Below are positions 143 to 57,012 of a stretch of DNA of 64,000 nucleotides, in pieces; the stretch's first letter is position 1, and each line of letters starts with the position of its first letter. Source of the stretch: Octopus vulgaris. Taxonomy: Eukaryota. The stretch spans positions 15,376,001-15,440,000 of the forward strand of contig OX597841.1 of the NCBI GenBank assembly GCA_951406725.2, read 5' to 3'. The notes beneath the pieces are model-generated. The model worked only from the letters and a program-made list of their open reading frames with translations, made no database searches and was not told the origin of the DNA. A program made the position numbers and the translations under genes.

Positions 143-235
143 TAATTGGCTGATGAGCACTAAGCATCTTAAATCTGTTGTAATACTTACAACTTTTAAT
201 AAAATGATGTAGTGCGAAACGATCGTACCAAATTA
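143..235 (+). ncRNA. Type I hammerhead ribozyme motif with extended stem II (Penelope-like/retrozyme type)
   Basis: taattgg-CTGATGA(150-156)-gcacta...tagtgc-GAAAC(216-220)-gatc-GTA(225-227)-ccaaatta. Stem II gcacta/tagtgc is capped by an internal hairpin gttgtaa/ttacaac. Stem III is the palindrome ACGATCGT. Stem I taattgg/ccaaatta has one bulge. Confidence 0.8.
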
Positions 236-564
236 CCAGAGTCATTCTTGTTGCTTATTTTGATTATAACCACCCCACAAATTTTTATGGATAACACCAT
301 ACAAAATTCTGGTGCATCTAAATTAAGTACCATATTCATTCGAATCTAAATTTTTGCTGAACTTATATATATATATATATATATATATATATATATATAA
401 ATTAGAAAAAACCCCACCTTTTATCAATTCAAAATGAACAATTAAATTACACCATCTAGAAAATTACATATAATAGAAATATTAAAATCAATATAGCAAT
501 AAATTACCAATAATTAAGTAAATTGCAAAAAAATAATAAAAACGTATGTAATTGGTAGAATAAC

Positions 565-660
565 AACACGTGTTTCGTGACTGTATTTACGAAATGATTA
601 TAGTAAAAAAATTAAAAGTAGTAGTAAAATCACTTCGATATAAATATAGCCACTCATCAG
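565..660 (-). ncRNA. Type I hammerhead ribozyme motif; 5' arm of stem I replaced by an adjacent SINE
   Basis: Minus strand reads CTGATGA-gtggctatattta...taaatacagtcac-GAAAC-acgt-GTT. Stem II is 13 bp with one mismatch and one G-U pair; stem III is the palindrome AACACGTGTT. SINE family A sequence begins directly 5' of CTGATGA. Confidence 0.7.
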
Positions 661-754
661 AAGGCACTTGCCCAAGGTGCCACGCAGTGGGACAGAACCC
701 GGAACCATGTGATTGGTAAGCAAGCTACTTACCACGCAGCCACTCCTACGCCTA
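661..754 (-). mobile_element. SINE family A, 5' tRNA-like head fragment
   Basis: Reverse complement of ggcgtaggagtggctgcgtggtaagtagcttgcttacc...ccttgggcaagtgcc, matching the full copy at 2287. Confidence 0.85.
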
Positions 755-1244
755 TACATACATATGTATGTATGTATGTATGTATGTATGTATAACACGT
801 CAGCTCAAAGTTTACTCGTCCTGTCGAAAAGACGCCTGTCTGTGACGTCCTGTTTTCGTTATTATTATTATCATTATTGTTTTTACGTATTTTTGTATTC
901 TTATTCGTGTAACATCGTCCGTTTTTCCGTCCTTGTTTTGTATACATTCGAGGCTTTCTTCCAAGGAATCTAATGCGCTTGGCTTAGATTTTCCTTTGGG
1001 GCTGGCCAGATCGGAGCAATCTCAAGATTAATCAGCCAAAATTGCGAGGATGATCCGGTTCTTGATTGAAGATTGAAGGCTTCGAATGTCCCGTCCGTGT
1101 TTTTTGTATCGTCTTCTAAATGTTTTGCGTTCTTGTCCCAGTTTGTATTTACACACACACACACACACACACACACACACACACACACACACACACACAC
1201 ACACACATACACACACACATTTATATTTTAAAAAAATTTTATTT

Positions 1245-1576
1245 TATCTAGTTTCAGCTCACGAGCTGTGGCCATGCTGGGGCACCGCCATTTGGTGTTG
1301 CTACATTATACTTCAGGAATGCTTTTTAGCAACTGCCATTTGGTGCATGAGAGAGTTCGATGCAGCTGCCCTCATCTGCACCTCCTGCCGTGAAGTTGGT
1401 TCATCCGGGACACCTGACAGGAAGAGATCCAGTCCTACTTTAAAGACATACACATCCACCCCATGGAGGTCCCTCAGGTTATTCGGGAGGATATTGAAGA
1501 GCTGTGGGCCTCTGAAGCCCAGGCTATCACAGTATCTTGTCCTACATCTTGATGGCAAATTTGGAGCTCTTGGCAT
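1245..1576 (-). mobile_element. CR1-group LINE 3' end (ORF2 C-terminus plus tail), 5'-truncated
   Basis: ORF 1313-1576 SLGFRGPQLFNILP...FKVGLDLFLSGVPDEP, then tail ggcggtgccccagcatggccacagctcgtgagctgaaacta. Same family as 56480 and 58930. Confidence 0.8.
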
Positions 1577-1677
1577 ATATATTTTCTTTTTTTATAGAAT
1601 TAGCGATAAGATCACTTTAACGTTATTATCAAGTGGCCGGTATGAAATAAAAACGTTTTAGGTAATATGTTATACTA

Positions 1678-2004
1678 AATTTATAATTATACAGATAATT
1701 ACATTAAAGGGTGCGGACTTGGTACACCTACACAATAGAAATAGATACCAAATGGCTCTATAAACCACCTCACTACTCCATTAGCATAAGTTGTAGTCGA
1801 GCAGATGTTTCATAACGCTTCGTTTCAAATCGTTCAATATATTATTGATCTGAAGGTTTTATTTTAGTTTTTTTCATCTGCCCGGTTACAGCCTGTGCTA
1901 ATGGAGTAGTGAGGTGGTTTTTAGAGCCACTTGGCATCTATTTCTAGCGGGTAGGTGTGGTAAATCAGCACCCTGTAATATAATTATCTATGCAATTATA
2001 AATT
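1678..2004. mobile_element. Foldback/MITE-like element with about 130-bp imperfect inverted arms
   Basis: Left arm ...aagggtgc...aaatggctctataaaccacctcactactccattagc...gcagatg pairs with right arm catctgc...gctaatggagtagtgaggtggtttttagagccact...gcaccctgta. No coding capacity. Confidence 0.7.
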
Positions 2005-2066
2005 ATATATATATATATATATATATATATATATATATATATATATATATATATATATATATATAA

Positions 2067-2116
2067 CATGGCCACAGCTCATGAGCTGAAACTAGAATCA
2101 ATCAATCAATCAATCA
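2067..2116 (+). mobile_element. Extremely truncated CR1-group LINE 3' tail with (ATCA)n
   Basis: catggccacagctcatgagctgaaactaga followed by atca repeats; matches the LINE tail at 1245-1275. Confidence 0.6.
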
Positions 2117-2286
2117 TATGTATATATATATATATATATATATATATATATATATATATATATAGGCTCAGGAGTGGCTGTGTGGTAAGTAGCTTGCTAA
2201 CCAACAAATAAAAGAGTAAAAAGATATATATATATACACTTACATTTATATATATATGTATTATATATATTATACATATATAATAT

Positions 2287-54664: not shown

Positions 54665-54806
54665 TATTGGGTTGATGCATAATTATTGCGGCTTTTTTTA
54701 TTTTTATTTTATTCAACAAAAACATCTTTAAATGACGGTTTGACCATCTGCCAAGCAAATGGGAAGCAGTAATTGAGGTAGATGGTGAATATGCTCCGGA
54801 ACAATC
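54665..54806 (+). mobile_element. Internally deleted mariner relic
   Basis: TIR-like tattgggttgatgcataattattgcggc followed by GFDHLPSKWEAVIEVDGEY, matching the mariner C-terminal L..RW..VI..DG.Y motif. Confidence 0.65.
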
Positions 54807-55874
54807 ATTCTAAGATGTTTTTGTTACATGTTGTTATTGTTTTTGTTGGATAAAATTTGTTGAAGCATGTATGTACATACACACACAACAAACACGCATT
54901 CACATTATATATATATATATATATATATATATATATATATATATATATATATATATATATATATATATATATACATACATATATATATATATGTATTATG
55001 TATGTATGTGCACATGCGCGCGTGTGCAGAGATCTATTTCTTTGGCGCCAAGAATTCTGCACATTCCCGCCACAATCTCGGGAGCTGAACTGTACACGCG
55101 CGCAACAGCCTCGTCTCATCACTGACTCCACCTTACGCCCCCCATCACGCCCCCGCGCAACAGCGCCGAAACCCCACCACCACCACCACGACCACCACTA
55201 ATATTTGTACCACGTGTTTGAAAGGCGACGGTCCTGATCTTTGGCTCGCGACAAGACGTGGCGCGCTTGCGAATGTTTGTATGTGTGTGTGTGTGTATGC
55301 GTGTGTATTGCATGTGTGCGCCTCCCTTTATGTCAGTGTGTGTATTTGCGTGCTTTATCAATATTTGCAAACAGTTGAGTATATATATATACACACATAC
55401 ACATACACACTCAGACGCATACACACACAGACATATGCACACGCACATACACAGAGACACTTAAAAACTATACATACAAACACACACACACACAAACACA
55501 CATATACACACGCACATACAAACACACAAGCACATACACACACATTCAGACACATGCACACACACAAACACACACATACAAACGCACACATACAAACACA
55601 CGCACGAACATACATACACACACACTCAGACACATACACACTCATGCACACACATTTAAACACACACACACACAAACACACATATATATATATATTTGTA
55701 TGTGTATATGTTTGTATATATATCTATATATATGTGTGTGTGCGTGTGTTTGCGTTTGCATGTCTGTGTGTCAGTGTGTGTGTGTGTGTTTGTTTGCATT
55801 TGTGTGTGTGTGTTTACTTGAAGGAGGCATTTCATTTCACCGTCCTCCAACCCACGTAGCTGGCAAAAATGAGT

Positions 55875-55995
55875 TATACCTGTAATTCGAACGGGAGCAG
55901 CCTTGTCAGATTCTATGTCACGCTGAATCTCCCTGAAAACTACGTTAAAGATAGCATTACTGTGAAATACTCAGCCACTTGCACGTTAATTTCGT
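55875..55995 (+). mobile_element. SINE family D 3' fragment
   Basis: gtcacgctgaatctccctgaaaactacgttaa...ctcagccacttgcacgttaatttc matches the reverse complement of 6475-6590. Confidence 0.7.
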
Positions 55996-56103
55996 ATATA
56001 TATATAGTTGGAATTTATAAAAAACGACGAAGACAGATGTATAAAACAGGTGTATATAAACAACGAGCAGGTTTATTAGTTTAACGTTCGGGAAGGTGAG
56101 AAA

Positions 56104-56142
56104 GTATTTTACGTTTCGAGCCTTCGCTCTTCAACGGAAAGG
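56104..56142 (-). ncRNA. Degenerate minimal hammerhead variant
   Basis: Minus strand ccgttga-a-gagc gaag gctc-GAAACGTA-aaatac. Same architecture as 51592, but the core deviates from CUGANGA. Confidence 0.4.
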
Positions 56143-56287
56143 AACACGGAGAAATATACAGAGAGATAATAAAAAAAATGCTTTAGTGACTACCGGTCAA
56201 TCATGGCGACACACACTAGAGTAAGCACATAAATGCGAAGCAAGGTGGAAAAAATAGTACTCGAATACCAAAGGTAGAGTAATATAC

Positions 56288-56420
56288 TTTATTAAAAAGC
56301 AGCCAAAATATCAAAAACTGTTCCTCAGAGTTTCACTTTCCCGTTCGTCGAACTGTCCGACGAACGGGAACGTGAAACTCCGTGTAACAGTCTTTGATAT
56401 TTTTACTGCTGTTTAATAAA
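56288..56420. repeat. Inverted repeat of two degenerate compact hammerheads (family of 4981-5027)
   Basis: Plus arm ctgt-CCGACGA-acg ggaa cgt-GAAAC-tccgt-GTA-acag (56353-56390). Minus arm tcgacga-acgggaaagt-GAAAC-tctgag-gaacag. The arms extend to tttattaaa/tttaataaa. Confidence 0.7.
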
Positions 56421-56479
56421 TATATATATATATATATATATATATATATATATATATATATAAATCCTTAAAAATGTTT

Positions 56480-56866
56480 TAGCCCGAAGGCCGCGGCCAT
56501 GCTGGGGCACCACCGCTGAATGAGCTACACTAGTTTGTGAATCCACCTCTGATACGTGGCACTTGATCAACAAGGGAGTTCGATGCTGCTGCCCGCATCC
56601 GTGTCTCCTGTCGTGAGGTAGGTTCATCTGGGACTCCCAACAAGAAGAGATCCAGTTTAGTTTTAAACCCACATCCACACCATGTAAGTCTCTCAGGCAT
56701 TTAGGGAGGATGTTAAAGAGCTGTGGTCCTCTGAAACCCAAGCTGTTGCAGTATCTGGACCTGTATTTTGATGGTGATGTTGGAATCCTTGGCACCACGC
56801 AGCGGCGCCCCGTTCTGCGGTTGGAGTAACTTTGAATGCCAAAGTTTGGGACAAGACCCTCCAGGA
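56480..56866 (-). mobile_element. CR1-group LINE 3' end, frameshifted
   Basis: RYCNSLGFRGPQLFNILPKCLRDLHGVDVG and tail gtgccccagcatggccgcggccttcgggctaaaac. Same family as 1245-1576. Confidence 0.8.
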
Positions 56867-56975
56867 TATATATATATATATATATAGTGAGGAGAATTCA
56901 CGAAAAACAAAAGACGAAAGCAGATGATGTAGACAACAAACAGATGTATAAGTTTAGCGCTCGGGAAGTGAAGAA

Positions 56976-57012
56976 GTCTTTACCGTTTCAAGCCTACGCT
57001 CTTCCACAGAAA
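56976..57012 (-). ncRNA. Degenerate minimal hammerhead variant (paralog of 56104)
   Basis: Minus strand ctgtgga-a-gagc gtag gctt-GAAACGGTA-aagac. Flanks 56885-57045 are homologous to 56003-56170. Confidence 0.35.

What the first reader, a model, noticed from the sequence alone, without database searches (positions are those of the whole stretch)
143..57012. Hammerhead-bearing fragments point into (TA)n tracts with consistent polarity
Seen: on the ribozyme strand a (TA)n run begins about 10-170 nt downstream of the motif for 143(+, TA at 365), 565(-, TA at 398), 4702(+, TA at 4829), 4981(+, TA at 5047), 39789(-), 41056(-, TA at 40943), 51592(-, TA at 51490), 56104(-), 56353(+, TA at 56421) and 56976(-, TA at 56885). 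The first two converge on the same (TA)n from opposite sides. Inference: the elements' 3' ends are primed at (TA)n microsatellites, making these tracts landing pads and possibly products of the system. Caveat: (TA)n is so dense here that some adjacency is expected by chance.
Basis: partly seen in the sequence, partly recalled or inferred. Interest (0 to 1): 0.7.

Follow-up and report, generated by a model that had tools for sequence, protein, structure and literature searches.

The report
Penelope retroelement ends at TA repeats
The hammerhead-bearing fragments are the tail ends of Penelope-type jumping genes and their short non-coding parasites, which in this genome mostly end at TA repeats that likely served as ready-made insertion targets, a known habit of this group, although one family does it without the zinc finger thought to aim it.

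Summary
The fragments are 3' ends of 5'-truncated Penelope-like elements (PLEs): 143 and 4702 belong to two Hydra-clade families, 56104/56976 to a Neptune-type family; two unlisted families are tandem retrozymes. In other copies from this octopus-like genome, 136 of 191 3' ends abut (TA)4 or more, against 53 of 128 5' truncation points and 2-5% of background positions. Polarity is thus partial: both sides are enriched, as expected for insertion into existing tracts. Six insertions split a SINE's internal TA tract, and no target duplication lies beyond the TA, so 'landing pad' is supported and 'product' only weakly. Craig et al. 2021 already list (TA)n as target of Hydra PLEs, including an Octopus family. 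New details: family C lacks the linker zinc finger proposed to aim at (TA)n (0 of 21 copies; 90 of 90 homologs have it) yet hits TA as often, and 3' junctions favour element-encoded TATA. The scan noted the same class before, in this and other genomes.

The parts
17..363 (+). Family A: 5'-truncated 3' end (pLTR with long tail) of a Hydra-clade PLE; type I hammerhead, core at 150, palindromic stem III, GUA triplet
   Evidence: upstream ORF with CxCx5C linker and GIY-YIG-type endonuclease in L285, L297, L300, L302
364..399 (.). (TA)18 tract shared by the converging 3' ends of A and B
400..660 (-). Family B fragment, short 3' end; hammerhead cut at its 5' stem I strand where it joins a SINE; no ORF found upstream in the 3 long copies translated
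4235..4280 (.). TA tract at the long 3' end of the family C unit
4281..4604 (-).
4669..4827 (+). Family C inverted short arm (core at 4709), ending at the element-encoded TATA; TA tract follows at 4828-4887
4974..5045 (+). Family D fragment, TA on both sides (4942-4973, 5046-5093); stems I and III match the hammerhead of Hydra-2_aMil; no ORF link tested
   Evidence: table in PMC8557442 supplement
8435..8870 (.). Family K inverted pair (cores 8532- and 8771+), tandem retrozyme with a unit of about 480 nt; here 3'-truncated and not at TA, unlike most copies
39774..39960 (-). Family G fragment ending at TA 39754-39773; homologs in L147 and L165 also abut TA; the genome search itself returned nothing
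40964..41081 (-). Family J fragment (sister of B), 3' half of the hammerhead only, ends early at TA 40912-40963
51490..51698 (-). Family E fragment, minimal hammerhead (core 51624), ends at TA 51478-51489; all 30 copies reach at most 66 nt upstream of the query, no ORF link
56007..56211 (-). Family F fragment, Neptune-type PLE 3' end, family core CUGUUGA, ends at TA 55995-56006
56216..56419 (.). D-like inverted pair (long arm on -, short arm 56353-56419 on +, mutated cores); the short arm ends at TA 56420, the long arm joins the 5' end of the F copy
56886..57049 (-). Second family F fragment, TA on both sides (56866-56885, 57050 onward)
61327..61767 (+).

Best explanation
The fragments are the hammerhead-bearing 3' ends of 5'-truncated Penelope-like retroelements (Hydra and Neptune types) and of tandem retrozymes, most of which end at TA repeats, and they likely got there by target-primed reverse transcription into TA tracts that already existed. 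Shown: families A and C continue upstream into Hydra-type ORFs and F into a Neptune-type endonuclease; each family has one or two discrete 3' ends (without and with a 70-130 nt tail); many units carry an inverted 5'-truncated arm, so both outer ends are 3' ends. Inferred: the GIY-YIG endonuclease nicks a (TA)n strand; the free TA end primes the telomerase-like RT inside the RNA, often at a UAUA that can pair with it; copying stops early, leaving the hammerhead region. Because (TA)n reads the same on both strands, elements can enter a tract from either side, giving convergent pairs such as 143/565. The apparent polarity arises because the hammerhead lies a fixed 20-250 nt from the priming site while 5' ends vary. 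Retrozymes H and K would borrow the PLE protein. Tracts may lengthen afterwards by target duplication and slippage, but are not templated tails.
For: 3' ends at TA 136 of 191, inverted arms 38 of 51, 5' truncations 53 of 128, background 1.9-5.0%; family K 24 of 28 with TA within 260 nt. Family C full-length ORFs of 833-934 aa with DKT, LYRDD, YIG, CxxC and CxH motifs, 30-42% identical to 120 listed homologs whose motifs match the Hydra alignment of Craig et al.; predicted model pLDDT 78, best structural matches telomerase RTs (E 8e-9; Z 17.4, rmsd 4.0, 302 aligned). Family A ORF and F endonuclease with CX4CxxC and CxxC between GIY and YIG, resembling Neptune1_Ap in the paper's alignment. Six clean insertions inside the internal TA tract of a SINE with both halves collinear; 50 empty SINE sites hold TA already (median longest run 11 nt, 80% at least 8 nt). 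Junction microhomology of 3 nt or more in 34 of 78 junctions versus 12% expected; 13 of 47 distinct positions, p=0.003. 6 of 136 TA-abutting ends face another hammerhead element, all convergent. Published (TA)n preference for 26 of the 27 Hydra families listed, including Hydra-1_Obim.
Against: No biochemical or empty-allele evidence here. 49 of 85 units with TA at the 3' end and a plain 5' truncation have no TA at the 5' junction, and TA on the two sides is uncorrelated (p=0.85), which simple mid-tract insertion does not predict; edge insertion, target deletion or imprecise 5' boundaries must be assumed. Families F (13 of 29) and J (8 of 18) are weaker. Microhomology is absent in D (0 of 4) and weak in K (4 of 15), and the one in vitro study found priming at a site not homologous to the target (PMC11167929). 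A SINE 5' end also abuts TA in 11 of 27 cases, so adjacency is not unique to PLEs. B, D, E, G and J were not linked to an ORF. Pfam does not recognise the endonuclease; its fold was not confirmed by a structure search. Loci are top-scoring hits, so young copies are over-represented; the C and J queries included 3' sequence.
Confidence: 0.78

Rival explanations
1. TA tracts are fragile sites (hairpins or cruciforms broken by host enzymes) that capture any retroelement cDNA; the PLE endonuclease has no TA specificity.
For: SINE 5' ends abut TA in 11 of 27 cases and a LINE 3' end in 2 of 4; a family without the linker zinc finger hits TA as often as one with it (23 of 29 versus 25 of 27); fold-back duplications flank TA tracts in the window (about 4050-4234); filled sites have long tracts.
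Against: Other SINE ends are near background (3 of 40, 1 of 13, 1 of 35); PLE 3' ends are discrete and far more often at TA than 5' ends; the invariant nuclease residues Y783, Y796, G798, R807, H811 are kept in family C.
Confidence: 0.14
2. The elements make the TA tracts: the telomerase-like RT adds (TA)n by slipping on a UAUA template at priming, so the repeat is a tail.
For: TA runs are longer at 3' ends (median 21 nt in 156 of 199) than at 5' truncations (13 nt in 62 of 135); 49 units have TA only at the 3' side; filled SINE sites have summed longest runs of 5, 25, 62, 72, 73 and 141 nt against an empty median of 11 and 90th percentile of 41; B and J carry an internal TA run.
Against: No unique target duplication after the TA (10 of 186 versus 6.0 shuffled, maximum 11); 41% of 5' truncation points abut TA; empty SINE sites already hold TA; the window has 211 TA tracts of 12 nt or more and under 20 hammerhead fragments. 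Preference for long tracts explains the length excess equally well.
Confidence: 0.07
3. Chance adjacency in a TA-dense genome, sharpened by the reader's choice of examples.
Against: Direct abutment in 71% of 191 other copies against 2-5% background, six of eight families found with queries that stop short of the 3' end.
Confidence: 0.01

Closest known systems
Hydra-clade Penelope-like elements, including Hydra-1_Obim of Octopus bimaculoides (Craig et al. 2021, PMC8557442; passages, section 11, supplementary tables and alignment excerpts read)
   Same: C-terminal GIY-YIG endonuclease without CCHH, DKT motif, CxxC and CxH around the conserved E and N, canonical hammerhead near the 3' end, inverted 5'-truncated arm, optional tail, (TA)n targets.
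   Different: Families A and C are not Hydra-1_Obim (other hammerhead and protein sequence). Both have a long Asn-rich linker; family C has no CxCx5C linker finger. Tails are 70-130 nt against the 30-40 nt described. ORF about 900 aa against about 700 aa in homologs.
Neptune-clade PLEs (alignment excerpt in PMC8557442 supplement; the targeting hypothesis of Arkhipova 2006 known only through that paper)
   Same: Family F endonuclease has the CX2-5CxxC linker and two cysteines between GIY and YIG, C-terminal and followed by the hammerhead.
   Different: Family F core is CUGUUGA (A6U) in 21 of 30 copies; its RT was not retrieved, so the clade rests on motifs only.
Metazoan non-LTR retrozymes (Cervera and de la Pena 2020, PMC7229834, passages; Li et al. 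2026 bioRxiv 10.64898/2026.07.22.740005, part 1 of 5)
   Same: Families H and K are tandem units with one type I hammerhead each; no endonuclease ORF was found in the 30 K loci.
   Different: Units of about 450-490 nt, longer than the 300-400 nt quoted; PLE-like paired 3' ends, inverted arms and TA targets; circular RNA not tested.
PAc (Poseidon) from Anolis, in vitro mechanism (Frangieh et al. 2024, PMC11167929; main text read)
   Same: Two internal start sites for RT that define short and tailed ends; AT-rich cleavage.
   Different: There priming was at a site not homologous to the target; here many short ends coincide with an element-encoded TATA that could pair with (TA)n.
[quoted passage not shown]
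   Same: Short palindromic helix III, motifs in opposite orientation 100-700 bp apart, mostly single motifs from truncated PLEs.
   Different: Octopus and microsatellite targets do not occur in that paper's text (0 hits).

Membership tests
Penelope-like elements (family C) | Telomerase-like reverse transcriptase in a single ORF | tested here: met
   ORFs of 833-934 aa; top Foldseek and VIA matches are TERTs
Penelope-like elements (family C) | C-terminal GIY-YIG endonuclease | tested here: met
   Motifs and invariant Y783, Y796, G798, R807, H811; feature hit at 0.95 to a cluster with PF01541 in 11% of members (a lead). Pfam gave nothing and the fold search did not cover this domain
Penelope-like elements (families A, C) | pLTR with hammerhead, optional tail, inverted 5'-truncated arm | tested here: met
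   inverted arms in 16 C and 13 A units
Hydra clade (family C) | DKT motif, no CCHH, CxxC and CxH flanking E and N | tested here: met
   one search compared with PMC8557442 section 11
Hydra clade (family C) | CxCx5C linker zinc finger | tested here: not met
   absent in 21 of 21 parsed copies, no cysteine in the linker of 4 long ORFs, present in 90 of 90 aligned homologs; so C is a Hydra-like variant
Hydra clade (family A) | CxCx5C linker finger and endonuclease motifs | tested here: met
   L285, L297, L300, L302; 30% identity to the C endonuclease region; full RT not retrieved
Hydra clade (families A, C) | Placement in the clade on an RT tree | not tested
   no tree was built
Hydra clade (families A, C) | (TA)n insertion preference | tested here: met
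   25 of 27 and 23 of 29 3' ends
Neptune clade (family F) | CX2-5CxxC linker plus CCHH-type endonuclease, C-terminal | tested here: met
   L127 and L136 translations against the Neptune rows
Neptune clade (family F) | RT sequence and tree placement | not tested
   no F copy reaching the RT was fetched
Non-LTR retrozymes (families H, K) | Tandem units each with a type I hammerhead, no protein | tested here: met
   periods 454-470 nt (2 H loci) and 429-492 nt (6 K loci); no YIG ORF upstream in K loci
Non-LTR retrozymes (families H, K) | Circular RNA monomers | not tested
   no raw RNA reads were offered among the 23 runs
Type I hammerhead ribozyme | CUGANGA and GAAA core with three stems | tested here: inconclusive
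   met by 4 of the 10 listed copies; family cores intact in A 29 of 30, C 29 of 30, H 19 of 30; variant in F and K
Type I hammerhead ribozyme | Self-cleavage | not testable with these tools
   needs an in vitro assay

The most novel reading that the evidence does not exclude
Family C is an autonomous Hydra-type PLE that has lost the linker zinc finger yet targets (TA)n as well as its finger-bearing neighbour A. Targeting would then rest on the nuclease core plus pairing of the nicked TA end with a UAUA in the RNA, which would also let unrelated PLEs and retrozymes share, and gradually lengthen, the same microsatellites.
Probability: 0.3. Interest if true: 0.55.

Novelty: new member of a known kind. 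Interest (0 to 1): 0.3.

Why it matters
The main claim is confirmation, with numbers, of a published property: hammerhead-bearing PLEs insert into (TA)n. It explains why hammerheads crowd TA tracts in this genome and why such fragments are easily annotated as SINEs or unknown repeats. The added value is a natural pair of young families, with and without the linker zinc finger, that makes the standing hypothesis on what aims PLE endonucleases at microsatellites directly testable, and a hint that priming is homology-assisted here, unlike in the only in vitro PLE system.

Tried and rejected
Rfam scan: the 150 rows shown of 661 were microRNA models on simple repeats; no hammerhead family was among them, the rest were not seen. 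Single-strand folding recovered stem II for A and C (z -2.2 to -4.2) but is uninformative for the minimal motifs. Genome search with the 39789 fragment returned nothing; its family rests on two homologs met in other loci. Idea that family K targets (CAT)n, from the window pair at 8532/8771: rejected, 24 of 28 other copies have TA within 260 nt, and the window's CAT flanks are part of a local inverted duplication. Search for target duplications beyond the TA: null. First microhomology script misclassified ends and was replaced. Empty-allele test: only contigs were offered; laying four runs on 4500-4760 showed the family at very high depth and no contig across the locus-specific inversion junction, which proves nothing. 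Homolog search with the linker and endonuclease alone found nothing; sequence searches of solved structures found nothing; the endonuclease folded alone without alignment was unusable (pLDDT 34); the viral fold library gave only polymerases. Of 9 candidate filled SINE sites, 3 were dropped on inspection (L008, L114, L132). Rows left out: 8 window copies, 7 second arms of units already counted, 2 weak D hits never oriented, and 12 copies whose 5' end was set by the reference length (5' counts only). 19 of 120 homologs could not be parsed. Candidates at 34945, 17450, 63585, 53939, 26451 and 25382 had no convincing homologs among the loci held.
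Full report
Setting. The window is G000:C28:15376001-15440000 of a 2.8 Gb genome. I call it octopus-like by inference (recalled SINE sequences, a cephalopod protein among the homologs, earlier scan notes). It holds 211 TA runs of 12 nt or more.

Check of the observation. All ten sites have (TA)6+ 22-164 nt downstream, nearer than upstream in 8 of 10, against 26% of background positions within 170 nt. 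A type I descriptor gave 10 hits in the window against 0-1 in four shuffles, and passed 4 of the 10 listed copies; the others are truncated, mutated or variant members of real repeat families. Eight unlisted motifs fail the 170-nt rule, so the 10 of 10 is selected; 10 of 18 remains above background (p=0.008).

Genome-wide test. I searched the own genome with each family and took up to 30 top loci (first-look candidates C 2314, A 2178, F 2113, B 1105, E 930, K 878, J 793, H 497, D 6). Queries for A, B, D, E, F, H and K stop short of the usual 3' ends; those for C and J include 3' sequence. Boundaries were set by BLAST against real long copies. Of 206 oriented loci in eight families, 8 window copies and 7 second arms were removed. 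(TA)4+ lay at 136 of 191 3' ends, 38 of 51 outer ends formed by an inverted arm, and 53 of 128 plain 5' truncations (12 more left out as reference-limited); background was 1.9% in flanks and 5.0% in the window; 3' versus 5' p=1.4e-7. By family: C 23 of 29, A 25 of 27, B 24 of 28, E 20 of 29, F 13 of 29, D 4 of 4, H 19 of 27, J 8 of 18. Controls: one SINE 5' end 11 of 27, other SINE ends 3 of 40, 1 of 13, 1 of 35, 1 of 4, a LINE 3' end 2 of 4.

What the elements are. Family C copies run upstream into an ORF ending in a GIY-YIG-type domain; six long copies encode 833-934 aa with DKT, LYRDD, no CCHH, and CxxC and CxH motifs, followed by the hammerhead and tail, with the upstream pLTR reading into the ORF start. 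These are the Hydra-clade marks of Craig et al. 2021 (PMC8557442, section 11). The predicted structure matches telomerase RTs best. Family A joins a second Hydra-type ORF. Family F joins an endonuclease with the Neptune linker and two cysteines between GIY and YIG. H and K are tandem units of about 450-490 nt, that is retrozymes. D has a hammerhead with the stems I and III of Hydra-2_aMil. B, D, E, G and J were not tied to an ORF. Most families have one short and one tailed 3' end, and inverted 5'-truncated arms are common, as described for PLEs.

Landing pad or product. The common SINE of this genome has an internal TA-rich tract: 50 empty sites have a median longest run of 11 nt. Nine units were flagged inside it and six are clean, with both SINE halves collinear (L009, L020, L023, L039, L120, L133), so the target existed first. 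Their summed longest runs (5, 25, 62, 72, 73, 141 nt) exceed most empty sites, which fits either preference for long tracts or growth after insertion. No unique target duplication follows the TA (10 of 186 versus 6.0 shuffled). Against a simple picture, 49 of 85 units with 3' TA and a plain 5' truncation lack TA at the 5' side, and the two sides are uncorrelated. Families B and J encode an internal TA run at the short end; in 14 parsed B copies it is 6-72 nt, so these elements do carry seeds of new tracts. Six of 136 TA-abutting ends face another hammerhead element, all convergent like 143/565.

Mechanism. Most likely target-primed reverse transcription from a nick in (TA)n, with internal initiation at two sites as shown in vitro for PAc (PMC11167929). 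Nicking and priming are inferred. Junctions inside the element overlap an element-encoded TA alternation of 3 nt or more in 34 of 78 cases against 12% expected, and at 13 of 47 distinct positions (p=0.003); D shows none and K little. This hints at pairing-assisted priming, which PAc did not show. In PAc hammerhead cleavage was not needed for insertion, so the ribozyme is best seen as a marker of the 3' end, not the aiming device.

The zinc finger. Craig et al. link the linker finger to (TA)n targeting. Family C has none: 0 of 21 parsed copies, no cysteine in a 157-174 aa Asn-rich linker predicted to be disordered, whereas 90 of 90 aligned homologs, Hydra-1_Obim and family A keep it. Yet C ends abut TA about as often as A ends, and in ORF-bearing C loci 7 of 10 tail-end matches abut TA while the other 3 read on into the ORF. 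Mobilisation in trans by a finger-bearing protein is not excluded. The paper itself notes that Chlamys elements lack this linker and still favour microsatellites. I found no report of a finger-less Hydra family in paper searches or scan notes; these searches are narrow, and Repbase and subscription journals were not seen.

Comparison with what is known. (TA)n is the listed preference for 26 of 27 Hydra families, including Hydra-1_Obim, and for octopus Naiads. A 2026 repeat annotation of an octopus counts 31 recently active PLE families and does not mention hammerheads (PMC13282606, passages). Earlier notes of this scan reached the same class on this and other genomes; none overlapped this place.

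Verdict. Real, quantified, and largely known: new families of a known kind. Interest 0.3. The finger-less family and the junction microhomology are the parts worth a follow-up.

Noticed in passing
window 890-1150 (+): Another repeated fragment with a hammerhead-like motif near 1072 whose second core reads GAAU; here it ends at (CA)n, in L003, L112, L117 and L239 at or near TA.
   Followed up: partly
window about 1600-2003: Inverted pair of a further element with a degenerate hammerhead-like motif on the minus strand near 1865; the short arm ends at TA 2004-2065.
   Followed up: no
window about 4050-4234: About 45 nt of unique sequence is repeated in inverted form on the two sides of a (TA)40 tract, a fold-back centred on the microsatellite.
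   Followed up: no
window about 8261-9110: Large inverted duplication that includes both family K arms, about 85 nt of other sequence and (CAT)n arrays on both sides.
   Followed up: partly
window 2286-2714 and other SINE copies: The commonest SINE has TA directly at its 5' end in 11 of 27 cases and an internal TA tract that PLEs use as a target.
   Followed up: partly
family F (L124-L153) and family K (L248-L277): Variant hammerhead cores are common family-wide: CUGUUGA in 21 of 30 F copies; U at position 3 in 24 of 30 K copies, CUGAGGA in 5.
   Followed up: partly
window 56007-56419: Composite of an F fragment and a D-like inverted pair joined tail to 5' end with only a few TG bases between them.
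   Followed up: no
window 4888-4941, 5128-5278, 22459-22736, 56462-56865: Other repeat fragments that abut or lie near TA tracts, including a LINE-like 3' end with a tandem AAGGATTT-type tail at 56462.
   Followed up: no
window 58929-59880 and about 61984-62700: Broken LINE-type reverse transcriptase fragments, unrelated to the hammerhead families.
   Followed up: no
window 34945-35015 (+): Hammerhead-like motif passing the descriptor at the lowest score, no homolog among the loci held, 521 nt from the next TA run.
   Followed up: partly
family D, L154-L159: All six copies have their 5' end or inversion point within a few bases of the same palindromic site just upstream of stem I.
   Followed up: no
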